A stretch of DNA of 26,168 bases from a virus (lineage: Duplodnaviria > Heunggongvirae > Uroviricota > Caudoviricetes), in the IMG/VR virus record IMGVR_UViG_2671180921_000027, positions 1 through 26,168 of that record. One strand, given 5' to 3'. Made by a program: the position numbers and the translations under genes. The stretch's first letter is position 1. Each line of letters begins with the position of its first letter. The notes under the pieces are model-generated. The model did no database searches. It worked only from the letters and a program-made list of their open reading frames with translations, and had not been told where the DNA came from. This document shows, one piece after another, positions 9,106 to 26,168 of the stretch.

Positions 9106-10011
9106 TTATGCCGGGGTGGTGATGTACGGGCTGTCCACGATCTCCACATCCTTGTACCAGATGTTGGAATCGCCGCCGTTAACCAGCATGGCGTCAATAA
9201 TGAGCTTCGCGTCCGCACGGTTTTTCGGCCCCACCACAAGGGTGGTCGGGCGGATGCCCAGCGGCTCACCGTTGGTGCCCTTCATGCCCCGCAGCAACTC
9301 ATTGGCTTTTTTGTAGTTCTCCACCGTCAGTGCTGCACGGGAACCGACGGCGGTCTGCCAGAAGCCGAAGCCCGCATTACAGCGACCGTCCACGCCGTAC
9401 AGGAACTCGTGGTTCTTGAAGGTGTGCTCGCTGTTCAGATCGTCCAGGGCTTCAAATTTAAAGGCGCGTCGCGTCTGCCAGATGATGGGTTTCAGCACCT
9501 GCGACTCATCAATCAGAAACCACGGTTCGCCCTGGTCCGTTCCTGGTGTACCGACAACGTTGCTGTAGGTGCCGTCGCCCAGCGGGTGGTCTTCATCAAA
9601 GAAGTTCTGGCCGTCAAAGCACAGGGTGTTAAACCCGGCACACAACAGGGCGTAACACAGCTTGTCCGGGAACACAGCAGTCATACGGCCATAGCGTTCG
9701 GCGGTAATGCTGTACTGACCTATCTGGTCATCTTCAATGTGTTCGCGCTTAACGCGAATGGAACTTTCCCAGAGTTTGTTGGTGATGGTGTAACCATAAC
9801 CGTCCAGCGTTGCCAGCTGACGCTCACCGACCCATTCTTTGATGTCCGGTAAATCTTTCATCCAGCCGTAGGTGTTGGAGGCGGACGAACTCGGCACCTC
9901 AGAAGCAATACGATTCCACTGCGGTTCGACACCACTCAGTCCACGGGTAAAGGCGGCGCTCAGGCAGGTGGTCAGCGCGTGAAGGATTTCAGAACTGACA
10001 GTCTGTCCCAT
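9106..10011 (-). CDS. Major capsid protein (Mu gpT-like)
   Basis: 301-aa ORF directly after protease/scaffold frame; TAATG junction at 10011. Confidence 0.8.
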   Translation of the reverse strand: MGQTVSSEILHALTTCLSAAFTRGLSGVEPQWNRIASEVPSSSASNTYGWMKDLPDIKEWVGERQLATLDGYGYTITNKLWESSIRVKREHIEDDQIGQYSITAERYGRMTAVFPDKLCYALLCAGFNTLCFDGQNFFDEDHPLGDGTYSNVVGTPGTDQGEPWFLIDESQVLKPIIWQTRRAFKFEALDDLNSEHTFKNHEFLYGVDGRCNAGFGFWQTAVGSRAALTVENYKKANELLRGMKGTNGEPLGIRPTTLVVGPKNRADAKLIIDAMLVNGGDSNIWYKDVEIVDSPYITTPA

Positions 10012-10721
10012 TAGTTATTCTCCTGTTTTGGTTTAGCGGCGAGGAACTCTTCCCCGGTAATACCCATGCTGCGGCACATCGCCAGTTCGGCGTCAGTCAG
10101 TGTCTGCGCGGGTTTATCCTTGCCCTGGCTGGGCTTGTCGTTGTTCACCAGCGGCTGTGCACCTTTGGTGTACTCCGCAAACTGTTTGCGGCCTTCTTCC
10201 GTGCGGCAGGTGGCAAGGAACATGTCACGGTTTGCCGGGGCCACTTTTCCGGCCTCAATGGCCGCATCCACAAGCGCTTCTGCTTCCTTCTCTTCCAGTT
10301 GCTGAAGGCGTTGTTCTGCGGTTTCGGCACGGTTCAGTGCCAGATTGTGGGTTTCCACCGGTACAAACTTCGTCAGGTCAGGTGTCTGTGCGCGGTTCAG
10401 CGCCACCTGTTCGTTCTCCTGAAGTTGTTTAATGGCGGCCACGGTATCGTCCACCGTGGCAGATTCAGCCAGCCCAAGCAGGCCGGTGATTTGCACAGGT
10501 ACTGTCATCGGGTTTTTCTCCGTATTCAGTGCAGGAAAGTCCAGGTTAGGTTTGTTGGTCAGCCCGACGCTGGACAGGCGCGTCACCACACCGTCTGCGT
10601 CAAAGAAAAACGCCGGGCTGTAATAGCGGTAACGGCGTTCGCTCAGCATCCACCGGGCGTACTTGCTCCAGACAACACGGCCTTCAATGGTGCCGCTGTC
10701 CGTCACGCGCAGTTCTTCCAC
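10011..10721 (-). CDS. Head protease/scaffold, C-terminal segment (begins at GTG immediately after the in-frame TGA)
   Basis: 236 codons in the same frame as 10722..10973; no convincing RBS before the GTG. Confidence 0.6.
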   Translation of the reverse strand: MEELRVTDSGTIEGRVVWSKYARWMLSERRYRYYSPAFFFDADGVVTRLSSVGLTNKPNLDFPALNTEKNPMTVPVQITGLLGLAESATVDDTVAAIKQLQENEQVALNRAQTPDLTKFVPVETHNLALNRAETAEQRLQQLEEKEAEALVDAAIEAGKVAPANRDMFLATCRTEEGRKQFAEYTKGAQPLVNNDKPSQGKDKPAQTLTDAELAMCRSMGITGEEFLAAKPKQENN

Positions 10722-10973
10722 TCAGCCATACGCCGGGGCTTCATCACCGCGTTGCCCTTTAATTTCGGTGGCGTGTTCAATGTCCACCGGAATTTTGATG
10801 TCGGACGAACGGGCGACCACCTCATGCGGATTACGGTTAATCCACGTCCGGCCATCGCGCCCGGTGAACTCACCCGCAGGGACGAGTTCAAGCCATTCCG
10901 GCAGTTGAGCGGGTGTCAGCTCAGGGATGGGTTCTGGCAGGGAAAAACACAGCGCCAGCAGTTCCGGTTGCAT
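10722..10973 (-). CDS. Head protease (Mu gpI family), N-terminal segment ending at in-frame TGA 10722..10724
   Basis: 83 codons with LVPAGEFTGRDGRTWIN motif; GGAGA RBS 6 nt upstream of ATG at 10973; stop TGA read directly. Confidence 0.6.
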   Translation of the reverse strand: MQPELLALCFSLPEPIPELTPAQLPEWLELVPAGEFTGRDGRTWINRNPHEVVARSSDIKIPVDIEHATEIKGQRGDEAPAYG

Positions 10974-11020
10974 GTCAGTCTCCGTCGTTTGGGGTTACCG
11001 ACGGTCAGTATGCGGAAGGC

Positions 11021-11048
11021 AGAAAAAAAGCCGGATTTACCGGCTTCA
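11021..11048 (-). terminator. Intrinsic terminator hairpin (AAGCCGG-UAAAU-CCGGCUU followed by U7), copy 2
   Basis: 7-bp perfect stem, 5-nt loop, run of 7 A on plus strand = U-tract on minus transcript; 26 nt identical to 18759..18784. Confidence 0.6.
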
Positions 11049-11069
11049 CTGAAAACGGGAAGAACACCC

Positions 11070-11109
11070 CCTTCAAAACCCCTTCAAAAACGCCACAGCA
11101 CCTTCAAAA
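11070..11109 (-). promoter_or_regulatory. Three direct repeats of CCTTCAAAA (TTTTGAAGG on the coding strand) in the F-I intergenic region
   Basis: Repeats start at 11070, 11081 and 11101 (spacing 11 and 20 bp); non-coding on the minus strand. Confidence 0.35.
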
Positions 11110-11187
11110 AAGTCAGAATGCACATTCACGCCATCAGAATAAAAAACGCGTTTCTGATGCGTTTCAGGGGGATTTACGGCGGGAGGT

Positions 11188-11952
11188 TTACTCACTGTCA
11201 AAACGGGCCTGTTTTGTCGCCAGCTGGCGCGCCAGCTCCTGCTCACGGTTTATGCCGGGATTGTAGTTCCAGCCCGGATCAATCCCTTCCGGCACATCTT
11301 CCTCTTCGCCCGTGCGTTTGTTCACCCAGCGGACAGTTCTGATTTCCGGCGCTTCGGTGTGAATGGTGCCCTGTGCCGCCAGTTGCGCATATTCACCACG
11401 GCTGACCTGACGAATGGTGCATTTGCAGCCCCAGCCGTTAGGAGCAAAATGTGTCTGCCAGAACGGATGATCTACCGGCAGACACAGACGCGCCCATTTC
11501 ACATGCTCCGCCCGGTGCTCGCGGGATGGCCCCAGCTCGTAAATCAGATACGGCATGGCCCGCTTTGTCCGTTGAATGCGTTCCCACTGGCCCGCCGCGC
11601 GGGCGGTGCGCATGTTGGTGTCAAAAATCGTGCGGAGGCGGCGGTCGCTGCCCAGCTGTACGGTTCGGGTTTCGCCCGTCAGCGGATCATCCATCTCCTG
11701 TACGCCCCACCATCCGCGTTTTATCAGCAGTGGTTGCAGCGCCTCCCGGAACTCACTGAACGTCTGCCCGCTTTGCAGGGCGTCTTCCACAAGGGTTTTC
11801 ACATCCGACAACAAATCCAGTTGCAGCATTTTTGCCACGGTGAAGCTGTTCCGGTGCTCTTCCCGCCACACATCCCGGTAATCAAAACCGGGGCGCAGCT
11901 TCTTCGCCTTCAGCCACGCCAGCGCCTCTTTCGGGATGAGGGTTTCACGCAT
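11188..11952 (-). CDS. Head morphogenesis protein (Mu F-like)
   Basis: ATG at 11952 overlapping portal stop (ATGCGTGA); ORF-track N-extension begins at TTG and is rejected. Confidence 0.7.
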   Translation of the reverse strand: MRETLIPKEALAWLKAKKLRPGFDYRDVWREEHRNSFTVAKMLQLDLLSDVKTLVEDALQSGQTFSEFREALQPLLIKRGWWGVQEMDDPLTGETRTVQLGSDRRLRTIFDTNMRTARAAGQWERIQRTKRAMPYLIYELGPSREHRAEHVKWARLCLPVDHPFWQTHFAPNGWGCKCTIRQVSRGEYAQLAAQGTIHTEAPEIRTVRWVNKRTGEEEDVPEGIDPGWNYNPGINREQELARQLATKQARFDSE

Positions 11953-13516
11953 GACCGGTGTCCCCCAGCGCACGCGCCTTAAAGCACACCTCCGCCAGTT
12001 GCAGGGCAAAGTCGTCCGCGTTCAGCGTTTCCTGAAGCTCAGGCAGGCGTTTCAGAAAGTCATCAAAACTGTCGCATTCCTGCGCCAGTGTCAGCACCGG
12101 GTTCGTGAACGCTTCGCCGGTTTTCTGCCAGTCACGCAGGGCATCATCCACCATCTGTGCCAGTTCGTCGGGGTGTTCCCGGTTCAGGGCGACGCGCTCG
12201 CGGTTCATCGCCATATCACCTGACATTCCGGCAGACACCGGATGCAGAACTTCCGCCCCTTCGTCCGGTTCAGCCAGGCCGAACCGGTCCCGCAGCTCCG
12301 ATTCCTGAACCCGCATCCCCCGGTCAATCAGCGGCACCAGAGCATCTGTCAGCGCCTTCAGATCTTCCGCTTCACTGATACGCAGAACAACACGGGGGTA
12401 GTGCGCCTGTGGCCCGTAGTTGGCCTCGATATAAGGACGCACCAGATATTCATTCAGCGTGTTAGCCAGTTGCCGCGCGTCCCAGCGCACAATGTCCATG
12501 CGCACCTGATTGTGCACGTCCGCCTGTGAACGCGAACTGCCGTTATCTGTGGTCATGGTCTGCCCCAGCACAGCCTTACTGATTTGCGCATCACACCATT
12601 CCGCCATTTCACGGAACAGTGCGCCGCCGTTATTCCGGCTGGCGATTTCCTGCATCTCCAGTTGCATGGACTGCGGGATGGCACACCCGGCATCCGAGGC
12701 AATGGAGGCAATCGCATCAATCAGCACGCGGATTTGCTCCTCCGTGGCGTTGGGACCGTATTTCCCCACCGTGACCGGAATGCCGAATTTTTCCGCAAAT
12801 GCCCACCAGTCGCGCACGGTAAAGGATTTCAGCATGTACATCACCGCCACCAGACGGGCCAGACCGTTACGCAGCGGCAGACCGGATTTCAGACGCGGCT
12901 GGTGAACAATGAATTTTCCCGGTGTCAGCGGTACGCCATCCACAGGTTCATCGTCCGTCAGCAGACGAAACTGGCGCAGCGTGGGCTTTTCGGCTTTCAG
13001 AAAACGGGGATCAACCCACTCATAATCACGGGGCATCCAGTGGTTGTTGCGGGTGTCCCACAGGATTTCACAGACCGCCACGCCTTTTCCCAGCCCGTCG
13101 AGCAAATCAAACATCAGCTCAGGGATTTGCGGGGCTTCCATCAGCGCACGGATGGCGTCCGCCAGTTGCACGTCAGCATCGTCATCACTGGCGGCCACCA
13201 CCACCGGTTCGATACCCGCCACCGTCAGCTTGCGGGTGCGCAGCACCGAGGCGTAATGCAAATCGCGTTCTTCCATCTCTTCAGCAAGGATAAAAAAATC
13301 ACGCGTGATGCCGTCGGCGGCATTGCGCAGAATGCCTGCCAGCCTGCCGGGGTTCAGCCCGGAAGCGATACTGATGCCCGGCGAGGCCGAGCGCACACCC
13401 GCCTGACGCGGACGGGCCTGTACTTCATCGAGCCTCTCTTTTTTCAGCGTATCTTCCTCACCGGTTGCCGGGTTCAGCAGACGGCGAACGGCTCCGGCCA
13501 GTTGTTTCAGGTTCAC
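11945..13516 (-). CDS. Portal protein (Mu gp29-like)
   Basis: 523-aa ORF after terminase large; GTG start at 13516 overlapping terminase stop (GTGA) with GGGAGG RBS. Confidence 0.8.
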   Translation of the reverse strand: MNLKQLAGAVRRLLNPATGEEDTLKKERLDEVQARPRQAGVRSASPGISIASGLNPGRLAGILRNAADGITRDFFILAEEMEERDLHYASVLRTRKLTVAGIEPVVVAASDDDADVQLADAIRALMEAPQIPELMFDLLDGLGKGVAVCEILWDTRNNHWMPRDYEWVDPRFLKAEKPTLRQFRLLTDDEPVDGVPLTPGKFIVHQPRLKSGLPLRNGLARLVAVMYMLKSFTVRDWWAFAEKFGIPVTVGKYGPNATEEQIRVLIDAIASIASDAGCAIPQSMQLEMQEIASRNNGGALFREMAEWCDAQISKAVLGQTMTTDNGSSRSQADVHNQVRMDIVRWDARQLANTLNEYLVRPYIEANYGPQAHYPRVVLRISEAEDLKALTDALVPLIDRGMRVQESELRDRFGLAEPDEGAEVLHPVSAGMSGDMAMNRERVALNREHPDELAQMVDDALRDWQKTGEAFTNPVLTLAQECDSFDDFLKRLPELQETLNADDFALQLAEVCFKARALGDTGHA

Positions 13517-15048
13517 AGTAAACCTCCCTCATTTTTCAGGCCGCGTGTCAGCTTCATCTGGCGGCGCGTGTTGCCTTCTTCCGGTTTCGCCAGGCGGTTC
13601 AGGCGGTGCAGCTCGTAACGGTGGCAGTCATCCTTGCTGGCAAGGAAGCCCAGGAAAATGGCCACAGCGGCGTCGCCGTGACGCTTGCGGCCATCACTAC
13701 CTTTAGTACGGGCATCGTCAATGCCGGGAACACCACGCAGTAACTGAATGGCCCCGAGGTCATTGATCACGTCTTCATGCTTCGGAAGGATCAGCTCATC
13801 ATCTTCAAACGCTGCACGGAAACGGGGCATGTTTTCACGGTAGAACGCCACGGACAGCATCACCTGTTCCACCTCATCGCCGTACCGCTCCGCCGCCTGT
13901 TCTGCCAGATACTGACCATTCCCCCGTGCATCCATTTTGATACCGTCACGACGGGGCAGACGATCGCAAAGCCAGAACAGCACCTGCTCCTGCTGTTTAA
14001 ACGGCACATTGCCAAGCTCAACCAGGAACGGCACCTCGCGGGTGGTGTCATCGTTCACCGTCACAGGGGCCAGTACGGTCAGGTCACCCGAACGCGCAAA
14101 GTCTTCCCCCAGACAGTGGCGCAGGTTCTTCGGGAGTTTTTCCAGCTCGGGGCGCACCACCGTCTCCAGCCATTCCCGGATTTCTGCCCGGCGCTGGCTT
14201 TCCGTCAGTGCGTTAAATTCCGGTGTGCCGGTAAAGCGCAACACTTTCCCGGTGCCACGGGCCGCACGTTCACGCAGTGAGCGAGGGATATACGTGCCGC
14301 CGCCGTTTTTCGGGACGCAGTAGTATTCCTCCAGGGCGTCTTCGCGGGTGGCGGTATTTCTCAGCAGACCTTCTTTCCATTCCGCCTCGGCCTCCGGTGA
14401 CCACACCATGCCGCGCACCTGACAGATACGCCGGTACAGCCCGTCATTGCAGGCATCATCCAGCGTGATGGTGTGAATACGGTAATCTTTTTTGCCTGCG
14501 CGGCTTTCCTGAATCAGCTGGTTAAACGGGTTGTCCACGCCGTCATGGGTAGAGATAAGGCGAACCTTACCGCCCCACGTGGTCAGTGGTGTGACCGCCT
14601 TGAGTACCTCATCCCGTTGTTCATGAAACGCCGCTTCGTCGATGGTGACATTCCCCTGCATCCCGCGAATGTTGCCCGGATTACTGGACAGCGCCTTGAC
14701 CTTAAATCCGCTGGCGAAGTACACGACGAACGTCAGAATGTCCTTGTCTTCGTCGGTGATCACTTCCTCGCGGATTTCTTCTGCTGCCGCATTAAACGCT
14801 TTCGCCCACATTGCCACGGCGTCGATAAATTCGCGGGCCATCTCCTTATTCGAACCGATATAAAAGTGATCGCGCCCGCCGTTTTCCTTCTTCAGTGATG
14901 CGGTCAGTGCCGCATCTGCCGCTTCTGCCCAGGTTAAACCGGTACGGCGGGATTTCTCGGCGATTTTCAGTTTTGAATCATCAGCAACCCAGCGTTTCTG
15001 ATACGGCAGCAGAACATCGGATTCACTGAACGTGTTCATCTGTGTCAT
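13513..15048 (-). CDS. Terminase large subunit (Mu gp28-like)
   Basis: 511-aa ORF; ATGA coupling with upstream gene; size and position. Confidence 0.85.
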   Translation of the reverse strand: MTQMNTFSESDVLLPYQKRWVADDSKLKIAEKSRRTGLTWAEAADAALTASLKKENGGRDHFYIGSNKEMAREFIDAVAMWAKAFNAAAEEIREEVITDEDKDILTFVVYFASGFKVKALSSNPGNIRGMQGNVTIDEAAFHEQRDEVLKAVTPLTTWGGKVRLISTHDGVDNPFNQLIQESRAGKKDYRIHTITLDDACNDGLYRRICQVRGMVWSPEAEAEWKEGLLRNTATREDALEEYYCVPKNGGGTYIPRSLRERAARGTGKVLRFTGTPEFNALTESQRRAEIREWLETVVRPELEKLPKNLRHCLGEDFARSGDLTVLAPVTVNDDTTREVPFLVELGNVPFKQQEQVLFWLCDRLPRRDGIKMDARGNGQYLAEQAAERYGDEVEQVMLSVAFYRENMPRFRAAFEDDELILPKHEDVINDLGAIQLLRGVPGIDDARTKGSDGRKRHGDAAVAIFLGFLASKDDCHRYELHRLNRLAKPEEGNTRRQMKLTRGLKNEGGLL

Positions 15049-15626
15049 GCGCTAATCCCCAGAATGTCCCGTTTGATGGTGTCAGCCGCACCGCCTGACA
15101 GACCGCCCGTTCTGACCAGCTCTTCGGTTTTTTCTGCCATCTCCTGCGCAAACGCATCGCGGATCGCTTTCTCGCGTTTATGGCTGGTCATGGCGGCCGC
15201 TTCCAGACGCTGGGCAACCAGCGCCAGTTGGCCCAGCGCCTTCGGTGCAACGGGCTTGTCGTCTTCTGCCATCGACATGGACGTTTCAAAGGCCAGCGTT
15301 TTTACAAACTCCATCAGCAGCTTGCCGACGTCTGACGTCGGCGCGGAACCCAGCTTTGCCGCCCAGACCTCGGCCATCTCGCGGGAGGCGCGGATTTTGG
15401 CCCCGACTTTTTCCATGCGGATGGCATAGCGGTTTAAGCCCGTCCGGCTTAACTGCATCTCTTCCGGCAGGTTGTGTTCGTCAATCAGGGCGTTGATGGC
15501 TTCGCGGATTTCTTCCTGCGTGTGCCGCTTTTCCCGCAGCATCTGATGCAACTGCTCCCGGATGCTGTCCGGGAGTAAATCCACTTTGGAAAGACGACCA
15601 CGGGTGGGGCGTTGTTCATTTTCCAT
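15045..15626 (-). CDS. Terminase small subunit-like protein (Mu gp27 position)
   Basis: ATG at 15626 with AGGAG RBS 7 nt upstream; ORF track extends to a GTG at 15647. Confidence 0.6.
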   Translation of the reverse strand: MENEQRPTRGRLSKVDLLPDSIREQLHQMLREKRHTQEEIREAINALIDEHNLPEEMQLSRTGLNRYAIRMEKVGAKIRASREMAEVWAAKLGSAPTSDVGKLLMEFVKTLAFETSMSMAEDDKPVAPKALGQLALVAQRLEAAAMTSHKREKAIRDAFAQEMAEKTEELVRTGGLSGGAADTIKRDILGISA

Positions 15627-15763
15627 GTGTGCGCTCCTGTTGCTCACTACGCTGTAAACTTTCGTATGCAGATTTCAGTGCGCCGTTCTGGATTTCCCGC
15701 CATGTCAGGTTATGCGCCAGACGGCGGAGTTCATCACGGGACGCTTTACTTATCGGATTCTTT

Positions 15764-16063
15764 TTACGGTTCACGACGGCCCCCGTCTTCAGTTCCCGGT
15801 GTTTTCAGACCGGCGTATATTTCTTCGCGAACGGAGCGGATATCCTTACCCAGCAGCTTCCACAGCCGCGCACATGCCGGTGATGAACGCAGGGCACGTT
15901 TCATGGGGGTATCCGGTGCATCCGGGTTCCAGGGCTTTCCGGTCTGTTGTTCATATGCACGGGCGATGGCGTTTTTCTCAATATCCGCGAGCACAAAACA
16001 GTACGCCAGCTGCCGCACGACGGCCCGTTCTCCGCGACTTAACGGCTTCAGTTTTCGCGCCAT
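15764..16063 (-). CDS. Hypothetical protein upstream of packaging genes
   Basis: 99-aa ORF; ATG at 16063; followed by a 137-bp non-coding gap. Confidence 0.45.
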   Translation of the reverse strand: MARKLKPLSRGERAVVRQLAYCFVLADIEKNAIARAYEQQTGKPWNPDAPDTPMKRALRSSPACARLWKLLGKDIRSVREEIYAGLKTPGTEDGGRREP

Positions 16064-16065
16064 GC

Positions 16066-16359
16066 TCAGTCCCTCGCACGGGGTTTTTTAACGCCCGGAA
16101 CGCTGGACAGGCCGTTTGCCACATCCTCGCCGCTGCCGGTGATTTCAGCCACGTAACAGCCGCCCACATCAGACAGACGAACCAGCCCCTGCTCGCGAAG
16201 CCATGCAAGCTGGGTGCGCACCACATCACGGGATACCTTATGACCGTAAGCCTGAAGGCAGGTCTGCAACACGGATTCATTCGCGCTGTCGCCACAGTCC
16301 AGCAGGGAACGCAGCAACACCAGACGACGGTCTTCAGTGAGGATCTCTTTCATCGCCAT
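16066..16359 (-). CDS. Hypothetical protein, possible winged-helix DNA-binding fold
   Basis: 97-aa ORF; TAATG junction at 16359. Confidence 0.45.
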   Translation of the reverse strand: MAMKEILTEDRRLVLLRSLLDCGDSANESVLQTCLQAYGHKVSRDVVRTQLAWLREQGLVRLSDVGGCYVAEITGSGEDVANGLSSVPGVKKPRARD

Positions 16360-16664
16360 TAATTTTTTTCCTTTAACTCGTTCTCTAATAACAAATCGCT
16401 GATGCGGGATACCTGGCGGATGGATGGCCCCAGCTCTTTGATTTCTCCCCGCAGGTTGCTGATATCCAGTTGCAGGCGGTGGAACTCATCACGATCAGGT
16501 AGCTGATGTACCTGGCTTTCCATCACCGACACGCGGGAACGCAGCAAATCAAACTCTTCGCGTTTGACGTAGGTCTTTGCCAGAATCAACTGAAGCAGGT
16601 TTATTCCTGTCATCAGCAATGCCCACAGAATGGGCCAGTTAGCTCTGATCATTTCCCAGGACAC
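16359..16664 (-). CDS. Membrane protein with N-terminal TM helix and coiled-coil tail (lysis accessory candidate)
   Basis: Hydrophobic WPILWALLMTGINLLQLILA near N-terminus; GTG start at 16664 with AGGAGG RBS 5 nt upstream. Confidence 0.5.
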   Translation of the reverse strand: MSWEMIRANWPILWALLMTGINLLQLILAKTYVKREEFDLLRSRVSVMESQVHQLPDRDEFHRLQLDISNLRGEIKELGPSIRQVSRISDLLLENELKEKN

Positions 16665-16876
16665 GTTTTCCTCCTGCGTTCCCGAATATGCTGACAGTCA
16701 ATACAGGTCACCACATCCGGCAGCGCCGCAAGGCGTTGTGCCGGAATAACGTTCCCACAGTCATTGCAGCAGCCCCGACTATGGGGCGCTTCTTTTGTCC
16801 GCGTCTGCCAGGCGTTAACGACGCTCTGACGTTCGTTCATAACCACTTCACTGATGCGGTCGATTTCGTCGGTCAT
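16649..16876 (-). CDS. TraR/DksA-family C4 zinc-finger protein
   Basis: 75 aa with CNDC...17 residues...CIDC; ATGA junction at 16876. Confidence 0.7.
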   Translation of the reverse strand: MTDEIDRISEVVMNERQSVVNAWQTRTKEAPHSRGCCNDCGNVIPAQRLAALPDVVTCIDCQHIRERRRKTCPGK

Positions 16877-17481
16877 TTCGGCCCCGCAGAGATTTTGTGA
16901 CGGCTCGATTTGCTGTACCGGGCAAAGCCGTCCATGGTTCTTACTCCGAGATAGCCCAGCGCCGGGGTAAGCAACATCAGCGTGATATCCCAGTCCGGTG
17001 ACGGCATATGCAGTGTGATACCTCTGGCACCGGCAATGGCTCCGGCAATCTGGCCACAGGAGAGCAACAGCACATAGGTCAGACTGCTGTAACAGGAAAG
17101 ACGGGCCAGCAGCGGGCGCGTCTGGCGCACATAGCTGTCCGCAGCGTTGTCACCATTGCGGATGGTTTCCTGCTGTTCGTGGTGTGCGGCCTGCTGGTCA
17201 GCCAGCACCAGCTTCTGCCGTTCCACCTCCAGCTGTTGCAGCTGAACTTTCAGGGTTTCCATCTGCATCAGTTGCTCCGGTGACAGCATCACCAGTTTTT
17301 GTTCCAGAATGCGTTGCTGTTCAGCCACCGGCAGGCTTTCCCGGACGCTTTCCACCATACCGGCCACCGAGTCAGCGGCGGCAGATGTGCTGCCACCAAA
17401 CCAGCGCCCGACGGAACGAATCAGCCCCGGCCCGGCTTTCAGCAGAACAGAGGCGATGCCTGAAAGGGTTAACGGATCCAC
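16873..17481 (-). CDS. Coiled-coil protein with two C-terminal hydrophobic segments
   Basis: GTG at 17481 preceded by GGAGG at 6-nt spacing; ORF-track upstream extension overlaps neighbouring gene and is rejected. Confidence 0.5.
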   Translation of the reverse strand: MDPLTLSGIASVLLKAGPGLIRSVGRWFGGSTSAAADSVAGMVESVRESLPVAEQQRILEQKLVMLSPEQLMQMETLKVQLQQLEVERQKLVLADQQAAHHEQQETIRNGDNAADSYVRQTRPLLARLSCYSSLTYVLLLSCGQIAGAIAGARGITLHMPSPDWDITLMLLTPALGYLGVRTMDGFARYSKSSRHKISAGPK

Positions 17482-17879
17482 GGGAAACCTCCATACAGAT
17501 AACGCTGAAGACAGAGCAGACCGCCGCAACTGCCACCACACAGCCAGAACACCGGATGCACCGGTGACATCATCATCAGCGTGCTGAAGACGCAGCAGAA
17601 ATATCCCAGCGCCCAGACCACCCATGACCACACGATGATGTGGCGACCAAAAGCCCGGTAACGGACCTCAGGCAGCAGGCGAAATGGCACATTCCCGAGG
17701 CTTGCGCTGTATGAAAACAACACCACCCCGGCAAAGGACAACAACATCAACACGAACGATCGCCAGCCACATAACATGCTGATGATGAACATGCAGAGTG
17801 TCAGTCCGGCCAGCGGCCATGGGGTTCTCATCAGTCGGGAACAAAGCAGCCAGTCACACAGTTTTAAAATTTTGTTCAT
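17469..17879 (-). CDS. Cys/Trp-rich multi-pass membrane protein (holin-like candidate)
   Basis: ATG at 17879; about four hydrophobic segments; first ~60 codons of the ORF-track entry look like out-of-frame overlap and are rejected. Confidence 0.45.
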   Translation of the reverse strand: MNKILKLCDWLLCSRLMRTPWPLAGLTLCMFIISMLCGWRSFVLMLLSFAGVVLFSYSASLGNVPFRLLPEVRYRAFGRHIIVWSWVVWALGYFCCVFSTLMMMSPVHPVFWLCGGSCGGLLCLQRYLYGGFPWIR

Positions 17880-18105
17880 TACCTTTTTCCACATTGAATT
17901 TTTCCCTGTACTTCTGGCACTGCCAGAAAATGTCCCGTGTATCCACGGAGTTCCAGCCACGCATGTAGTAGCTGGCGTGTGTGCCGTCATGACCGGTATA
18001 GTCCAGCGGTTTCGGGGGCGGACCTCCGGCCATGCGGTGCAGAACCTCCTGACGCAGGCGGTCACGCCGCCCGGCTTTCAGTGAGGCATCCCAGCCTTTA
18101 CCCAT
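17854..18105 (-). CDS. Small hypothetical protein translationally coupled to endolysin
   Basis: 83-aa ORF; ATG at 18105, 2 nt after endolysin stop; Trp/Tyr/Cys-containing, non-repetitive. Confidence 0.4.
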   Translation of the reverse strand: MGKGWDASLKAGRRDRLRQEVLHRMAGGPPPKPLDYTGHDGTHASYYMRGWNSVDTRDIFWQCQKYREKFNVEKGNEQNFKTV

Positions 18106-18106
18106 A

Positions 18107-18703
18107 TCACCCCCGCGTGGCGGACATGATGCCTAGAGGGGTATCGATGATTTCCAGACAGGCGTCGGTCAGCTTTTCCATGCGGTTAAACCAGCCGTTC
18201 AGGTATTTACCCTGGGCGGGTTTTGACTTGATGATGTCGGCATAAAAGCGGGAACGACGGACAATGCAGCGGGCCAGCAACCAGTCCGGGGTGGACAGAC
18301 TCACGGCCTTACGGGTACGTGGGCCGATGATGCCGTCAGCATCCACATCAGCGGCTTCCTGCAAAATTTTGATGGCTTTTTTAACGCCATGCTGAACCGC
18401 TGCATCGAACACAAACATCGCCACGCCATCAGGCCACTGGTCACATCCGGCAGGCAGCCAGTAATCGCGCCAGTAAATCTGCGCAACCTGTTCGCGGGTT
18501 AAATCCTTAATGCGGGTATCCGGTTTGCCGTCGCCGTTGACATCGGTTTTGCCGTCAATCACACCGTCGCGGCGGTCAGAAATGCCGTATTTGGTTTCGC
18601 CGCCACGGTCAGAGGGGTCATTGACATAGACGCCTTCGATATCGGGACGCAGAATGAAATTCAGCGCATGTTCAAAGGCCGGGGAGAGTTTTTGATTTTC
18701 CAT
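18107..18703 (-). CDS. Endolysin, GH108-type muramidase with C-terminal peptidoglycan-binding region
   Basis: GGETKYGIS motif near N-terminus; AGGTG RBS 5 nt upstream of ATG at 18703. Confidence 0.7.
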   Translation of the reverse strand: MENQKLSPAFEHALNFILRPDIEGVYVNDPSDRGGETKYGISDRRDGVIDGKTDVNGDGKPDTRIKDLTREQVAQIYWRDYWLPAGCDQWPDGVAMFVFDAAVQHGVKKAIKILQEAADVDADGIIGPRTRKAVSLSTPDWLLARCIVRRSRFYADIIKSKPAQGKYLNGWFNRMEKLTDACLEIIDTPLGIMSATRG

Positions 18704-18756
18704 AAAAGCACCTGTGAAGCAGATTTAAACGTGGTCTGCTTCATGGTGCCGGAGGC

Positions 18757-18784
18757 ATAAAAAAAGCCGGATTTACCGGCTTCA
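18757..18784 (-). terminator. Intrinsic terminator hairpin 4 nt after the Mor/C-family stop codon, copy 1
   Basis: Same 26-nt sequence as 11023..11048; 7-bp stem, 5-nt loop, U7 tract on minus transcript. Confidence 0.65.
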
Positions 18785-18788
18785 TTGA

Positions 18789-19238
18789 TTAAGGGCGGCG
18801 TGGCGGACGACGAACGGGGTGAGGCAGGTTCGGGGAGTGGTAGAACAAATCCGGCTGGTATTTATTACGCTCCAGACGTCGCATCCGTTTGATGGCCTTG
18901 TAGACGGTTTTATACGTCACTCCGTAACGCTGAACCAGTTCAGGAATATTATGGCCGTTAAAATCACGCCAGATACGCATATCCCGGACAAGATTCTCCA
19001 GAATATTCCCCCTCGGAACATAAACCTGCATCCCGCCGATATGGCGACAAATCGCCACAACCAGCTCAAGGGAATGGGCAGGGTCTGCGCCAATCCGGGC
19101 CAGCTCTTTACGCAGCAGTGCGTTCAGTTCAGAAAGTAACGCCGGATAAGCGGTGTTTTCCTGGTAATCGTTAAGGTATTCCAGAACGCTGTCGTCCCGA
19201 AGGTCTTCGAATAAATCCTGCTCTTTCATCTGTTTCAT
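18789..19238 (-). CDS. mor: Mor/C-family transcriptional activator
   Basis: 149-aa ORF; ATGA coupling to GemA-like gene; sequence resembles remembered Mor (FPALLxELNxLLRxEL...DPAHSLE..VAIC). Confidence 0.7.
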   Translation of the reverse strand: MKQMKEQDLFEDLRDDSVLEYLNDYQENTAYPALLSELNALLRKELARIGADPAHSLELVVAICRHIGGMQVYVPRGNILENLVRDMRIWRDFNGHNIPELVQRYGVTYKTVYKAIKRMRRLERNKYQPDLFYHSPNLPHPVRRPPRRP

Positions 19239-19786
19239 ACAGCAATTCTCCCGCTGTTTCGTGCGCGGGCATATGCACTGGTCAGTGCATCATATCCGCG
19301 CAGTTCCCGCCCGGATGGGCTTACAGGTAAAGGCACACCATGTCGGGCAAAGGCTTCCCGGATGCAGCGCATATGCCACTGTTTGAGCGTTTCGAGCACA
19401 ACCTGCAACGATTCCCCGTGACACCAGGCCAGTGTGGAAACACCCTGACCGCCATTACGTCTGGCCGTCAGGCGCTCAACGTATTTGTCCAGCGCGGCGT
19501 CGCTGGTATCGGAGACGAAACCATCAAGAAACATCTGTTGCCAGATTTTATAAATCTTCTCGCGCGGTGTGACATGCCCCTTAAAGCGACGGCGGGGATG
19601 TTTTTTCTGCTTCTTAAAACCGCGCTCTTTCATGGCATCGAGCACACGTTCCAGTTGTGCAACGGACAGCTCGCGGCAACTGGTCTTGCCCGTGCACTGC
19701 ACCAGAAAGGCGCGGTAAGTGTCATCGTCGAGTTGTAGATCACGACGGGCGACATGAATTAACTTAATAAGCGATGTGCGACTCAT
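19235..19786 (-). CDS. gemA: GemA-like protein (Mu gp16 family)
   Basis: Start refined to ATG 19786 with GAGAGGTGA RBS; LIKLIHVARRDLQLDDDTYRAFLVQCTGKTSC matches remembered GemA motif. Confidence 0.65.
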   Translation of the reverse strand: MSRTSLIKLIHVARRDLQLDDDTYRAFLVQCTGKTSCRELSVAQLERVLDAMKERGFKKQKKHPRRRFKGHVTPREKIYKIWQQMFLDGFVSDTSDAALDKYVERLTARRNGGQGVSTLAWCHGESLQVVLETLKQWHMRCIREAFARHGVPLPVSPSGRELRGYDALTSAYARARNSGRIAV

Positions 19787-19816
19787 TTTGTCACCTCTCA
19801 TATTAAGGAATGAGAT

Positions 19817-20221
19817 ATGAAAATTGATTACGATGAACTGGCAAGAATCCTTGATACTTTTCTGAATGCAGACAGCGCATTTATTACCCTTAAGGATGTT
19901 GGAATCGACACAACCGACGATGAAGATAAACTGATATTTCATTTATTACTGCTCGTCGAAAATGGTCTTATCGGTAACAGAGAACTGCAAACTGGCACCC
20001 CGGAGTGCATCGGTCTGAAGTTCACCACAACAGGTATTGGCTGGCGAAACATACCAATAAGGCTGACTCAGGACGGACATGATTTTGCCAATGCATTGCA
20101 TCAAAAACCTATTCTTGAACGAATCAAAAAAGAATTTGCCGAAGCCCCGTTTGATGTTGTCAAAGACCTCGGCAAGGGGTTTTTAACTCAGTTATTTAAA
20201 AAGAAACTCGGTATTGAATAA
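19817..20221 (+). CDS. Hypothetical protein, possibly DUF2513-like; AT-rich opposite-strand gene
   Basis: 134-aa ORF, the only convincing plus-strand gene; ATG 19817 after AAGGAA; 22 G+C in first 60 nt by hand count; RLTQDGHDFANAL resembles a remembered DUF2513 motif (unverified). Confidence 0.6.
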   Translation: MKIDYDELARILDTFLNADSAFITLKDVGIDTTDDEDKLIFHLLLLVENGLIGNRELQTGTPECIGLKFTTTGIGWRNIPIRLTQDGHDFANALHQKPILERIKKEFAEAPFDVVKDLGKGFLTQLFKKKLGIE

Positions 20222-20494
20222 CTCCTTACTCATTCGCTGTAGCACATCAAGGGCGGCAACTGCTGCCACTTTATCCTGACCGGCAATGATTTTTCGTAAT
20301 TCCTCAATAATCCAGGCATGGCTTAATGATTCAGCAATCATCGTGCGCTTTTCTGAAATTAAATTTTCTCTGGCCTGCTCATAGTGCTGGTATACGACAT
20401 TATCCAGAAAATCATTTACATTTTGTTCTGGCATGCCACTGGAAATTAAGGTTGCAGCCATTAAATCAGCATCAGTAATCATCTGTATTTTCAT
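20192..20494 (-). CDS. Hypothetical protein, AT-rich, convergent with and overlapping 19817..20221 by 30 nt
   Basis: 100-aa ORF; GAGGAGGT RBS 9 nt upstream of ATG at 20494; 22 G+C in first 60 nt by hand count. Confidence 0.55.
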   Translation of the reverse strand: MKIQMITDADLMAATLISSGMPEQNVNDFLDNVVYQHYEQARENLISEKRTMIAESLSHAWIIEELRKIIAGQDKVAAVAALDVLQRMSKELFNTEFLFK

Positions 20495-20554
20495 TTCTTA
20501 ATACCTCCTCGCAATAAAAAACTTCATTCGGATGGCGTTTCTGCATGTGCTCCA

Positions 20555-20668
20555 TCACCTGCATACATGCCTGCTCTGTGGGCCAGATTTTTCTGTCACC
20601 GGAATGGCATCACAGGCATCATTCCCACAGGTGCCAACCAGCAGGACAAAGCCAATTGACTTAATCAC
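20555..20668 (-). CDS. Candidate small ORF (37 aa) with hydrophobic N-terminus and near-lipobox LVGTC
   Basis: Hand translation MIKSIGFVLLVGTCGNDACDAIPVTEKSGPQSRHVCR from GTG 20668 with GGAG 7 nt upstream; below ORF-track size cut-off. Confidence 0.2.
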   Translation of the reverse strand: MIKSIGFVLLVGTCGNDACDAIPVTEKSGPQSRHVCR

Positions 20669-20945
20669 CGTTCGTCTCCATTTGTTCCAGGCGCTGCGCT
20701 TCGCGCATACACAGCTGCGCAATCATCATCTGGCGGGTAATGCCTGCACGAATAAACGAAGCTGCACGACGGAGATTTTTTGCATTCGCCTGTTGAATCA
20801 ATGCAGGCACTGATGCCAGACATTCGGCGCTGTCTTTAATCAGCGTTGCTGCTGTTATTTCTGTTTTTTGTCGTTCACTCTTTGTGGTCATAAACATCAC
20901 CATTTCAGATTCAGGCGCGAGCAATCCCCTGACGCATCGCGCCAT
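20661..20945 (-). CDS. Hypothetical early protein; start uncertain (possibly ATG at 20891)
   Basis: 94-aa ORF without RBS at first ATG; internal ATG with GGTGA upstream. Confidence 0.45.
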   Translation of the reverse strand: MARCVRGLLAPESEMVMFMTTKSERQKTEITAATLIKDSAECLASVPALIQQANAKNLRRAASFIRAGITRQMMIAQLCMREAQRLEQMETNGD

Positions 20946-20985
20946 AATTAAAAGAAAGTGAATTAATTAAATATTCGTAGTGGTA

Positions 20986-21510
20986 TTAAATACCGGCTTC
21001 CTGTTCAAACGGAATAATGGAAAAATCTTCAATTCCAGACTTAACTGTAATTCCGGCAACACCTGCTACCGCTTTCGGTTCCAGTAAAATTGCTTCCTTG
21101 TTGATTTCCTGTTTCGTGCGAATAAAGCGTTGCAGACCAAGACGCTCCAGCGTTTCCATCACCGCATCCACACCGCGAATACTTACCGATGGTGGGCGCT
21201 GACGCCATGACACATCGCCGGTTACCAGGTTCGCCGTCTTCACCTTGCCGCCGTTCGTCAGTTCGTCACGGTTCGCTTCACACCATCCCTGAACGCCTTT
21301 TGAAAGGGTTTCAATACTGGTTTTAAGCGGCGCAATCTGTGAGGCGTATTTCTCAGTAATTTCAGCGATAGCGTCATTCATTTCCGTTTCAAGTCGTGCT
21401 GCTTCGCGTTGCAGGTCCCCAATCCGGCGGATATCACATACCACGGCATCGCGGGATTGCGGAACATAAGCCGCTGCGGCGTTCTTGATTCGTTTTGCTG
21501 GTTTAGCCAT
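20986..21510 (-). CDS. gam: Gam-like host-nuclease inhibitor (Mu Gam family)
   Basis: 174 aa, MAKPAKRIK...RIGDLQREA...; length and sequence closely match remembered Mu Gam. Confidence 0.8.
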   Translation of the reverse strand: MAKPAKRIKNAAAAYVPQSRDAVVCDIRRIGDLQREAARLETEMNDAIAEITEKYASQIAPLKTSIETLSKGVQGWCEANRDELTNGGKVKTANLVTGDVSWRQRPPSVSIRGVDAVMETLERLGLQRFIRTKQEINKEAILLEPKAVAGVAGITVKSGIEDFSIIPFEQEAGI

Positions 21511-21530
21511 ATAAATAAAGCTCCTGTTAA

Positions 21531-21830
21531 TTAATATTCGCTGTATACAATGCTGGATACAGCACGATTGCTTAATTCCATCTTTTGGGCAATGACATGA
21601 ATAGCCAGCCCTTCTTTATAAAGTTCACGACACAAATATTTGTCGTGCTCACTGACCCGGTATGCACACAACGATATTCCGTGTCTTCTGGCATGTGCCT
21701 GTAGGGCGGTTGGGGCAACGTTCAGTTTCTTCGCCATTTCTTCGACGGTCATTTTCCCGACGCTGGCTTCGATAAATTCCCGGTCTTCGCGTGACCAGCG
21801 TTTACGCTTACACATCATTCCGGTCACCAC
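21531..21830 (-). CDS. Small DNA-binding protein with two helix-turn-helix-like segments; start uncertain
   Basis: WSREDREFIE...MTVEEMAKKLNVAPTALQAHARRHGI plus a second similar segment. Confidence 0.45.
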   Translation of the reverse strand: MVTGMMCKRKRWSREDREFIEASVGKMTVEEMAKKLNVAPTALQAHARRHGISLCAYRVSEHDKYLCRELYKEGLAIHVIAQKMELSNRAVSSIVYSEY

Positions 21831-22250
21831 TCAGTACAACAGGGGGTCGCGCAGTGATGCCGGAATATGCCGCAGCGATAACTGAACCGCTTTCAGGGCA
21901 AGGGAAGAATACGTCCCCTGCGTCCAGCCTTTAGCCATTCGCCGGTAATCGCGCCAGATGTTCTGCCACTGCTCCCGTGCGTCCGGGTCTGACGCGCTGA
22001 TGTATTCACGGTCCATGACGTATTCCCATAAATCCACATTGAAGGCATTGCCAAACGTAATGGCGCGGAATACCGCCTCCCCGCAATAACGCGCACAAAT
22101 GCTGTAATGGTCAAATGCAATCAGGTAAGTCTTTTCGCCATACCCCTCAACTTCGCGCGCGCAAATAAATTCGCGCAAGTCTCCACCATTGCTATTACGC
22201 TCTTTAATCCGAATTAATGCCTGGATTTCGTTTCTGATTCTGGCGTTCAT
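21831..22250 (-). CDS. Hypothetical early protein (139 aa)
   Basis: AAGGAA RBS 8 nt upstream of ATG 22250; no family recognised. Confidence 0.5.
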   Translation of the reverse strand: MNARIRNEIQALIRIKERNSNGGDLREFICAREVEGYGEKTYLIAFDHYSICARYCGEAVFRAITFGNAFNVDLWEYVMDREYISASDPDAREQWQNIWRDYRRMAKGWTQGTYSSLALKAVQLSLRHIPASLRDPLLY

Positions 22251-22270
22251 TGTCAGCGTTCCTTTGTGAA

Positions 22271-22540
22271 TTAATGTTTGGCTGCATCCGGGTTATACCG
22301 GAATAACTCGCCTTCGACTTCCAGCCCAAGTTCTCTGGCTGACTTCAACAACTCCTGGGTTGCTTTTTCAATAATTTCAGGAGCCATGCTCTTGATAATG
22401 CCTGCCATCACGTCATGCGGTCCGATTTGCTCCTTAGGAGACTGTTCTTCCAGTTGCACACTCATTCCTACAAAGAAACCTCCTTTTTTCTGAAACTCAA
22501 CATCTTCCATGCGGTTAAATTCAAAGATTACTTTTGCCAT
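22271..22540 (-). CDS. Hypothetical early protein (89 aa from refined start)
   Basis: ATG 22540 with GAGGAA RBS; ORF-track N-extension rejected. Confidence 0.45.
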   Translation of the reverse strand: MAKVIFEFNRMEDVEFQKKGGFFVGMSVQLEEQSPKEQIGPHDVMAGIIKSMAPEIIEKATQELLKSARELGLEVEGELFRYNPDAAKH

Positions 22541-22572
22541 TTTGTTATTCCTCACAAATAAATAAGCCGTTA

Positions 22573-22800
22573 TTAACGCCAGATAATCTGGCAACCATTA
22601 AGACGGGCCGTCCATACTGAACGGGCAACCCCTGATTTATGCTCCATAATCCTGACAGCGTTTCTGACCAGCTCCGGCGGTGGGCAGGTGATTTCAAGCA
22701 CCGGGCGGGCCACGCCCAGCCATGATTCGTTGACGTGACTGCCGCGCTCCTGTAACCAGGTCTTTACTTCCGTCGCCATTTTGATATTACGAGACATCAT
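22573..22800 (-). CDS. Small early protein in the Kil position, immediately after the MuB-type gene
   Basis: 75-aa ORF; AAGGAA RBS; positional analogy only. Confidence 0.4.
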
Positions 22801-22812
22801 GGTTTGTGTTCC

Positions 22813-23766
22813 TTACTGCCAGTTCAGTAACTTAGGGTTGCTGTAAGCCTCCTTAAAAGCCGCTTTAATGTGACTTTTATTCAGGGATGAACCAGCACCT
22901 TTCGCCGCCAGCCACGCATGATTCAGTGTGTGAGTTAATACACGCAATCCCCCGGGCTTTTCGGCTACCCTCATCAACAGGTCCAGCTCATCTTCCTGTG
23001 TTACTCCCCATGCTTTGGCTACAGCCATCACGTCGGTTTTTTTCACTTTGCGCAGTTGTTTCGTCATGGCAAAACGGCTGAACAGACGGGCCAGCTCATC
23101 AGTCCCACGACGGGTGGCATCCGCCATCTGTTTCGGGTTGCCAATTAAAACCATCCCCACGCCAGTGGCATCCTGAATGGCGCGTAATTGCTCCAGACCA
23201 TCCACACTTAAGTGATCAGCTTCATCAATAATCAGCAGGGGGTTAACACGGCCACTAATTTCTTTACCACCGCCCAGTTTTCTGCGAATGGCGCGGGTTA
23301 TATTCCCCTTATTTCTTCCCGGATTATTAATTTCCAGCGCATATGCTATTTCAAGGAGACATTCCGTAACGCTCGAATGTGCCGGAGCAAGCGTCACCAT
23401 CCAGGCATTAGCTGTTTTGCGGCAATATTCCCGTGCAGCAAAAGTTTTGCCGACACCCGGTACGCCAACAACAACACTAATAATCCCGAGTGAGCGCACT
23501 GTTTTAAACAGCTCATGCAAATCACAAAATGTCTGGGTCTTCACAACGCCGGGGGCACCTGACAAATTCTGCCCTTTTTGCCAGACCCGATACCATTCCT
23601 GTAATTTGTCATGCATGCCTTCAACATTGCCTCTGTACTTTCCTTTACGAAGATCAGAAAGTGTTGCCGGAGACATTCCGGCCTCATCAGCAATATCTTC
23701 CTGGGACTTGTCGCCCTCGTTAATCAAAGCGTTAATAGTGTTGAAAACATCATCAATATCAGTCAT
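22813..23766 (-). CDS. B: MuB-type transposition target-capture ATPase
   Basis: 317 aa; Walker A GVPGVGKT; N-terminal HTH-like segment; GGAGGAG RBS 5 nt upstream of ATG 23766. Confidence 0.85.
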   Translation of the reverse strand: MTDIDDVFNTINALINEGDKSQEDIADEAGMSPATLSDLRKGKYRGNVEGMHDKLQEWYRVWQKGQNLSGAPGVVKTQTFCDLHELFKTVRSLGIISVVVGVPGVGKTFAAREYCRKTANAWMVTLAPAHSSVTECLLEIAYALEINNPGRNKGNITRAIRRKLGGGKEISGRVNPLLIIDEADHLSVDGLEQLRAIQDATGVGMVLIGNPKQMADATRRGTDELARLFSRFAMTKQLRKVKKTDVMAVAKAWGVTQEDELDLLMRVAEKPGGLRVLTHTLNHAWLAAKGAGSSLNKSHIKAAFKEAYSNPKLLNWQ

Positions 23767-23810
23767 AGTATCTCCTCCATCATTACAGATTTACTTTATT
23801 TTCCTTGTTT

Positions 23811-23839
23811 AACAGTCCGTTACCGCGGACTGTTTTTTT
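23811..23839 (+). terminator. Hairpin AACAGTCCG-TTACCG-CGGACTGTT followed by T-run, between transposase and MuB-type genes
   Basis: Perfect 9-bp stem read directly; T-tract on plus strand, A-tract on the coding (minus) strand. Confidence 0.4.
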
Positions 23840-23841
23840 AT

Positions 23842-25929: not shown

Positions 25930-25931
25930 TT

Positions 25932-26168
25932 TTACGCCACCTTACGAACGTAGCGGCTGGGCCAGATCTCCTCCGGAGCCACACCGATAGCATCAGCAAT
26001 AATGCGTTCATACTTAGGGCATTTGCGGTACAAGGCATTCTTTAAAGAATCCTTGTTTAAACCTGCTTCAACTGATAGCGAACGCAAAGTAAAGCCTTTC
26101 ACATGCACTGCAGCGACAACATGTGCCGGGTGCCAGTCCTGTTTTACAACTTCATTTATAGACATCAT
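25932..26168 (-). CDS. ner: Ner-like DNA-binding regulator
   Basis: 78 aa ending ...EEIWPSRY...; ATG at the window edge, so the true start may be either of the first two ATGs. Confidence 0.75.
   Translation of the reverse strand: MMSINEVVKQDWHPAHVVAAVHVKGFTLRSLSVEAGLNKDSLKNALYRKCPKYERIIADAIGVAPEEIWPSRYVRKVA

What the first reader, a model, noticed from the sequence alone, without database searches (positions are those of the whole stretch)
10719..10727. In-frame TGA splits the head protease/scaffold reading frame
ORFs 10722..10973 and 10011..10721 are contiguous in one frame, separated only by TGA at 10722..10724 (coding strand reads ...GCC TAT GGC TGA GTG GAA GAA CTG CGC...). Together they form a 320-codon protease/scaffold-like frame. 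TGA is one transition from TGG, and a Trp at this spot (AYG-W-VEELR) is what I would expect for this family, which is inference. It is therefore either a nonsense mutation marking a defective prophage, a sequencing error, or a leaky stop, since UGA read-through commonly inserts Trp. The downstream segment lacks a convincing RBS, arguing against two designed genes.
Basis: partly seen in the sequence, partly recalled or inferred. Interest (0 to 1): 0.6.

Follow-up and report, generated by a model that had tools for sequence, protein, structure and literature searches.

The report
Nonsense mutation in prophage head protease
A single G-to-A change has turned an invariant tryptophan codon into a stop codon in the head-maturation protease gene of a Mu-like prophage carried by one E. 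coli clone, which is ordinary early prophage decay and not a new coding device.

Summary
On the minus strand, one frame runs from ATG 10973 to TAA 10013-10011 and is broken only by TGA at 10724-10722 (codon 84).

With Trp restored, the 320-aa product is a Mu gpI-type head protease with a nested scaffold (Pfam PF10123, E 1.6e-44). All sampled relatives read TGG at this codon, and W84 is invariant down to 45% identity.

The TGA is a real allele, not a read error. It appears in 11 independent loci that are 99.97-100% identical to the window. It co-segregates with other SNPs.

Every carrier whose host flank was seen sits at one chromosomal site, the tauB/tauC junction of E. coli. A sister prophage differing at 6 of 21,572 bases still reads TGG. 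Intact relatives occupy more than 20 different host sites.

The stop falls between the invariant His67 and Ser119 of an assemblin/T4 gp21-like fold, so both fragments should be inactive. The nested scaffold start (Met156, with GGAG upstream) is untouched. The 36 other genes checked in the window are intact.

Best reading: a recent loss-of-function mutation in a vertically inherited prophage. Low-level UGA read-through would insert Trp and restore the wild-type protein, and this cannot be excluded. Interest is low.

The parts
10722..10724 (-). Premature TGA stop at codon 84 of the head protease gene. The ancestral codon is TGG (Trp); the change is G>A at the third base, window position 10722.
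   Evidence: sequence. TGG in the more than 30 relatives read at this codon, TGA only in the window's own lineage. W84 invariant.
10725..10973 (-). N-terminal fragment of 83 codons, from ATG 10973. It contains the invariant D64/E66/H67 (His67 codon at 10775-10773) but lacks Ser119.
   Evidence: PHROG 328 positions 4-88; invariant columns; gene callers call this 83-aa ORF on Logan contigs.
10011..10721 (-). Remainder of the protease/scaffold frame (codons 85-320 plus TAA). It holds the rest of the protease fold with invariant Ser119 (10619-10617), a disordered linker (about residues 144-151) and the helical scaffold part. There is no Shine-Dalgarno sequence before GTG 10721.
   Evidence: PHROG 328 positions 91-338. 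AlphaFold model of the 98%-identical intact relative P0001.
10011..10508 (-). Nested in-frame scaffold gene (Mu gpZ-like), starting at Met156 (ATG 10508-10506). GGAG lies at 10521-10518, 9 nt upstream. The TGA does not touch it.
   Evidence: sequence. M156 at least 90% conserved; the 167-position PHROG 15607 begins exactly at this Met; the helical region begins here. PMC2628397: a scaffold gene embedded in frame in the protease gene is usual in Mu-like phages.
10662..10664 (-). Second, later mutation downstream of the stop: GAG>AAG (E104K). It is present only in a sub-branch of the TGA lineage: the window plus L006, L043, L045, L046 and L053.

Best explanation
A genuine TGG>TGA (W84*) nonsense mutation in the gpI-type head-maturation protease gene of a Mu-like prophage. 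The prophage sits at the tauB/tauC junction of one E. coli clone and is inherited vertically. Translation from ATG 10973 ends after 83 residues. That fragment carries the invariant His67, while the invariant Ser119 lies beyond the stop, so neither piece should be an active protease (inference from conservation and fold). The scaffold can still be made from its own internal start at Met156. By analogy with the role of gpI in Mu, proheads would assemble but the scaffold, and the portal C-terminus, would not be processed, so the prophage is probably unable to make infectious heads, or does so very inefficiently. The mutation is recent: a sister prophage 99.97% identical over 21.5 kb still reads TGG, and the 36 other genes checked in the window are intact. 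Shown here: the allele is real, derived, confined to one lineage, and seen at only one site. Inferred: loss of protease activity and of phage production.
For: Sequence and frame. Family: PF10123 at 1.6e-44 and PHROG 328 across both fragments. Gene order F - protease - T major head is as in relatives.

Ancestral state TGG: five-way DNA alignment. More than 30 loci read TGG against 11 loci plus the window with TGA. No exact match to the TGA-spanning 60-mer in 5,426 complete E. coli genomes, where the best hits have one mismatch. W84 invariant in 24 and in 39 homologues.

Real allele: the exact 83-aa product is on 11 contigs from several runs. The carriers are 99.97-100% identical to the window, and the TGA fits a consistent SNP tree: TGA first, then two sub-branches, one with E104K and terL L145R, the other marked by the changes at 17466 and 25046.

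Single site: L042, L043 and L044 carry both the TGA and the tauD-tauC flank. All 17 contigs with the exact transposase share that flank. The flanks are identical over up to 9.7 kb, and the flank is E. coli tauD/tauC/tauB at 99.9%.

Sister with TGG: L052 differs at 6 positions in 21,572 bases. The intact ancestral protein is on 128 contigs. Intact relatives sit at more than 20 host sites.

Purifying selection on intact alleles: 57 synonymous against 21 nonsynonymous distinct changes. In the TGA lineage: 0 synonymous against 2 nonsynonymous in this gene, and 5 nonsynonymous against 2 synonymous across the prophage.

Annotation: NCBI assemblies of this lineage list no protein between F and T, as expected if the annotation pipeline treats the gene as a pseudogene.
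Against: The 36 other genes checked in the window are intact, so there is no independent sign that the prophage is dead.

UGA is the leakiest stop in E. coli and is read mostly as Trp, and a G after the stop lowers termination efficiency (PMC11126739). The context here is UGA-G, so some fully wild-type protease may be made.

The TGA lineage has persisted long enough to split into two sub-branches. That is neutral with respect to function.

[quoted passage not shown] Loss of activity of the two fragments is inferred, not measured.
Confidence: 0.85

Rival explanations
1. Leaky stop. Near-cognate tRNA-Trp reads UGA at a low rate and produces exactly the wild-type protease. Because the protease acts catalytically inside proheads, this could be enough to keep the phage viable, perhaps with a reduced burst, so the prophage would be attenuated and not dead.
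For: TGA is the most read-through stop in E. coli, is replaced mainly by Trp, and a G following the stop decreases termination efficiency (PMC11126739). The context here is UGA-G followed by G-rich sequence. The 36 other genes checked in the window are intact.
Against: Much of the high UGA leakiness is attributed to the weak RF2 of K-12, and strains with the B-type RF2 terminate efficiently at UGA (PMC5373646). The RF2 allele of this host was not examined. There is no stimulatory RNA structure 3' of the stop (z = -0.22) and no tRNA in the window. All TGA carriers with a visible flank are at one site in one clone, whereas intact relatives are at more than 20 sites. The next change in the gene is nonsynonymous.
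Confidence: 0.12
2. Sequencing or assembly error: the true base is G (TGG).
For: It is a single-base difference from all relatives.
Against: The same base appears in 11 loci from separate runs and assemblies (several SRR and ERR accessions and four GCA assemblies). It segregates with linked SNPs in a consistent tree. A sister prophage assembled the same way reads TGG.
Confidence: 0.01
3. Two designed genes, or programmed recoding (selenocysteine or programmed read-through), at this position in this phage family.
For: GTG follows the TGA immediately (UGAGUG), which in principle permits termination-reinitiation.
Against: No homologue carries a stop here. Of the 120 best homologues listed, nearly all are 309-346 aa long, and the few short ones named by a source are partial proteins. 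All 15 intact alleles in related loci read TGG. There is no Shine-Dalgarno sequence before the GTG and no SECIS-like structure. TGA is the normal stop of 16 of 37 genes in the window. The split would separate invariant His67 from Ser119 within one fold.
Confidence: 0.01

Closest known systems
Bacteriophage Mu gene I / Z (gpI head protease with the in-frame nested scaffold gpZ); Pfam PF10123 Mu-like_Pro, PHROG 328
   Same: Same family by profile. Same position between the F-like minor head gene and the T major head gene. N-terminal assemblin/T4 gp21-like protease fold followed by a helical scaffold part. Nested scaffold start with its own GGAG. PMC2628397 describes the embedded scaffold as typical of Mu-like phages. 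PMC11915804 cites Grimaud 1996 for cleavage of the portal C-terminus by protease I.
   Different: Here the protease reading frame is broken by TGA at the invariant Trp84. tblastn against the phage collection found only hits below 60% identity. The early region uses a 695-aa transposase and an HTH_3-type repressor, unlike the Mu c-type repressor seen in many relatives.
Prophage pseudogenes: early decay of resident prophages by point mutation
   Same: One inactivating substitution in a structural gene of an otherwise intact prophage, fixed in a host clone and inherited vertically at one site. Independent frameshift-truncated alleles of the same gene exist in other E. coli (P0122, P0132).
   Different: No deletions, IS insertions or further pseudogenes were seen within the window, so this would be a very early stage. 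Inability to produce phage has not been shown.
Opal (UGA) nonsense mutants that are naturally leaky in E. coli through tRNA-Trp near-cognate decoding
   Same: UGA replaces a Trp codon, so any read-through restores the wild-type protein. The G after the stop favours read-through (PMC11126739).
   Different: There is no evidence that read-through occurs here or is selected. The stop is not conserved in any relative.

Membership tests
Mu gpI-type head maturation protease/scaffold (PF10123, PHROG 328) | Significant match to the family profile over the full length | tested here: met
   PF10123 at E 1.6e-44, 153 bits against a cut-off of 25.2, residues 29-311, with Trp restored. The two fragments cover PHROG 328 positions 4-88 and 91-338.
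Mu gpI-type head maturation protease/scaffold (PF10123, PHROG 328) | Assemblin / T4 gp21-like protease fold with conserved His and Ser | tested here: met
Mu gpI-type head maturation protease/scaffold (PF10123, PHROG 328) | In-frame nested scaffold gene in the 3' part | tested here: met
   Met156 with GGAG 9 nt upstream. M156 is at least 90% conserved. PHROG 15607 (167 positions) starts at this residue. Expression was not tested.
Mu gpI-type head maturation protease/scaffold (PF10123, PHROG 328) | Located between the minor head (F) gene and the major head (T) gene in the late operon | tested here: met
   F at 11188-11952, protease at 10011-10973, gpT at 9106-10011, all on the minus strand.
Mu gpI-type head maturation protease/scaffold (PF10123, PHROG 328) | Uninterrupted reading frame encoding an active enzyme | tested here: not met
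   TGA at codon 84. Enzyme activity itself cannot be tested with these tools.
Programmed UGA recoding (selenocysteine or programmed read-through) | The stop codon is conserved among relatives | tested here: not met
   TGG in every relative outside the clone.
Programmed UGA recoding (selenocysteine or programmed read-through) | Stimulatory or SECIS-like RNA structure just 3' of the UGA | tested here: not met
   The 76-nt fold is no more stable than shuffles, z = -0.22.
Programmed UGA recoding (selenocysteine or programmed read-through) | Dedicated suppressor tRNA | tested here: inconclusive
   No tRNA gene in the window. The rest of the host genome was not available.
Defective (cryptic) prophage | Inactivating lesion in a gene needed for virion production | tested here: met
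   Nonsense codon between invariant His67 and Ser119. That Mu gene I is essential comes from established knowledge of Mu (Grimaud 1996, cited in PMC11915804), not from a test here.
Defective (cryptic) prophage | Further decay: deletions, insertions or additional pseudogenes | tested here: not met
   The 36 other genes checked in the window have full-length frames. The part of the prophage outside the window was not examined.
Defective (cryptic) prophage | No infectious particles on induction | not testable with these tools
   Needs an induction experiment.

The most novel reading that the evidence does not exclude
The opal codon is functionally leaky. In the natural host, tRNA-Trp reads UGA-G often enough to supply wild-type protease, so this widely sampled E. 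coli clone would carry a naturally attenuated but still inducible Mu-like phage whose yield depends on conditions that alter UGA termination (temperature, nutrient state, RF2 allele).
Probability: 0.1. Interest if true: 0.35.

Novelty: already known. Interest (0 to 1): 0.12.

Why it matters
It matters little beyond annotation. The two ORFs should be annotated as one protease pseudogene with an internal stop, not as two genes. The prophage should be scored as probably defective for head maturation, even though it looks complete to tools that count genes. It is a clean, datable example of the first step of prophage decay: a sister prophage 99.97% identical is still intact, and there are two later sub-branches. 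If the leaky-stop reading were true, it would be a natural case of a prophage whose productivity depends on UGA termination efficiency.

Tried and rejected
1. A megablast of the gene region against the phage collection found nothing. Only the protein-level search did.

2. An exact scan for the TGA-spanning 35-mer in one genome per species found nothing.

3. I tried to find the insertion site of the intact sister prophage L052. Look-ups with window proteins Mor, the 134-aa plus-strand protein and the 94-aa protein returned only more distant relatives, because these proteins are too common. They did show many insertion sites with intact proteases. Whether the mutation arose in situ at the tauB/tauC site therefore remains undecided.

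4. A sequence-profile search of the PDB found nothing. Only the fold comparison did.

6. Selenocysteine or programmed recoding was rejected: no conservation of the stop and no structure.

7. An alternative genetic code was rejected: TGA ends 16 of 37 genes in the window.

8. Sequencing error was rejected.

Full report
**1. Observation**

On the minus strand an ORF starts at ATG 10973 and runs 83 codons to TGA at 10724-10722. The next triplet, GTG 10721-10719, continues the same frame for 236 codons to TAA 10013-10011. The only slip is GCC for GCG in the quoted sequence. No Shine-Dalgarno-like motif precedes GTG 10721.

**2. What the gene is**

- With Trp restored, the 320-aa product matches Pfam PF10123 (Mu-like prophage I protein) at E 1.6e-44 over residues 29-311.
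- The two fragments cover contiguous parts of one profile, PHROG 328 head maturation protease: positions 4-88 and 91-338.
- The gene lies between the Mu F-like minor head gene (11188-11952) and the gpT major head gene (9106-10011), as in annotated E. coli prophages where it is a single 963-nt 'phage protease' CDS.
- An AlphaFold model of the 98%-identical intact relative P0001 has three parts:
  - a confident beta-rich N-domain (about residues 25-140, pLDDT 85-97);
  - a disordered linker (residues 144-151);
  - a helical C-terminal part.
- D64, E66, H67, W84 and S119 are invariant in 24 and in 39 homologues down to about 45% identity. Taking H67 and S119 as the catalytic pair is inference from this fold family.
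- A nested scaffold gene starts at Met156 (ATG 10508-10506), with GGAG at 10521-10518:
  - the Met is at least 90% conserved;
  - a separate 167-position family, PHROG 15607, begins exactly there;
  - a scaffold embedded in frame in the protease gene is described as usual for Mu-like phages (PMC2628397).

**3. The codon**

- Four close E. coli prophages read TGG where the window reads TGA.
- Across all loci fetched, more than 30 read TGG, and only the window's own lineage reads TGA.
- None of 5,426 complete E. coli genomes contains the TGA-spanning 60-mer; the best hits have one mismatch.
- W84 begins the beta strand at residues 83-90 in the protease core.
Its refutation condition, homologues with a stop at this position, is not met.

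**4. Real allele or error**

- The exact 83-aa truncated product is found on 11 contigs from several independent runs.
- In all, 11 fetched loci carry TGA and are 99.97-100% identical to the window: L005, L006, L007, L017, L042-L046, L050 and L053, from SRR and ERR runs and four GCA assemblies.
- L043 (GCA_016997975.1) is identical to the window over 8107-26168.
- The SNPs form a consistent tree:
  - the intact alleles (L052, L051, L014, L020 and others) read TGG;
  - the TGA lineage then splits into two sub-branches;
  - one sub-branch carries protease E104K (10664) and terminase L145R (14615), and includes the window;
  - the other is marked by the changes at 17466 (Ile at codon 6 of the 202-aa gene) and 25046 (Asp at codon 295 of the MuA transposase).
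- This rules out a sequencing artefact.

**5. Where the prophage sits**

- L042, L043 and L044 contain both the TGA and the host junction: tauD, tauC, then the prophage repressor end.
- All 17 contigs carrying the exact transposase share this flank.
- The flanks are identical over up to 9.7 kb.
- The flank matches E. coli tauD-tauC-tauB at 99.9%, and the host homology ends at the tauB/tauC boundary.
- In contrast, relatives with an intact 320-aa protease lie next to more than 20 different sets of host genes, as expected for an actively transposing phage group.
- The intact ancestral protein is recorded on 128 contigs; the truncated 83-aa protein is recorded on 10.
- A sister prophage (L052) differs from the window at only 6 of 21,572 positions and reads TGG. 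Its insertion site could not be retrieved.

**6. State of the rest of the prophage**

- The 36 other genes checked in the window have full-length frames.
- TGA is the normal stop of 16 of 37 genes, so the standard genetic code applies.
- Intact alleles of the protease gene differ mostly by synonymous changes: 57 synonymous against 21 nonsynonymous.
- After the stop arose, the changes seen in the lineage are 5 nonsynonymous against 2 synonymous. This is compatible with relaxed constraint, but it is weak evidence at this timescale.
- NCBI assemblies of the lineage list no protein between F and T, consistent with pseudogene annotation.
- Two independent frameshift-truncated alleles of the same gene occur in other E. 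coli, so inactivation of this gene in lysogens recurs.

**7. Mechanism**

- *Most likely:* loss of the protease.
  - The 83-aa fragment has His67 but not Ser119, and any reinitiated C-fragment has Ser119 but not His67.
  - The scaffold can still be made from Met156.
  - By analogy with Mu, where protease I is credited with portal C-terminal cleavage during head assembly (Grimaud 1996, cited in PMC11915804), proheads would form but not mature.
- *Rival:* UGA is the leakiest stop in E. coli, is decoded mainly as Trp, and is leakier with G as the next base (PMC11126739). The context here is UGA-G, so some wild-type protease may be made.
- *Against a designed read-through:*
  - no conservation of the stop;
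  - no stimulatory RNA structure (z = -0.22);
  - no tRNA in the window;
  - efficient UGA termination by non-K-12-type RF2 (PMC5373646);
  - no sign that the TGA allele ever moved to another site.

**8. Verdict**

This is an ordinary, recent nonsense mutation in a resident Mu-like prophage. It should be annotated as one protease pseudogene with an intact nested scaffold gene. Novelty: already known. Interest is low. The only non-trivial residual possibility is a functionally leaky opal codon, which a simple induction experiment would settle.

Noticed in passing
window 14615 (terminase large subunit gene 13513-15048, minus strand, codon 145): The window and its sub-branch (for example L006 and L043) carry CGG (Arg) where every other relative covering this site, including the other TGA carriers, has CTG (Leu). 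This is a second private nonsynonymous change, in another gene needed for packaging.
   Followed up: partly
window 11027-11047, minus strand: A terminator-like hairpin (GAAGCCGG-TAAAT-CCGGCTTT followed by a T run) lies in the 214-bp gap between the F-like minor head gene and the protease start. In Mu the strong gyrase site lies between G and I (PMC2628397); whether this gap holds an equivalent was not examined.
   Followed up: no
window 19817-20221, plus strand: The only called gene on the opposite strand in the window: a 134-aa ORF with no Pfam hit, overlapping the 3' end of the 100-aa minus-strand gene. The exact protein is listed in 140 blocks of the collection and occurs in many related prophages.
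   Followed up: no
proteins P0122 and P0132 (other E. coli assemblies): Independent truncated alleles of the same protease gene. The 109-aa and 89-aa products diverge from the normal sequence near residues 106 and 78, as if by frameshift. This suggests recurrent inactivation of this gene in lysogens.
   Followed up: partly
L041 / L062 (GCA_949281525.1): A related prophage with the same 695-aa-type transposase region ends abruptly after the 202-aa gene and runs into host genes (SafA, a molybdopterin enzyme, fimbrial genes). It is a truncated remnant that lacks the whole head and tail module.
   Followed up: no
window 23842-26168, with L008 positions 8792-9621: The early region is a different module from many relatives. 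It has a 695-aa transposase without DDE_2 or HTH_Tnp_Mu_2 Pfam hits, and a 195-aa HTH_3-type repressor instead of the Mu c-type repressor. The late region is nearly identical to that of phages with the other early module (for example L051), which indicates mosaic recombination. The prophage left end abuts the tauB/tauC boundary of E. coli.
   Followed up: partly
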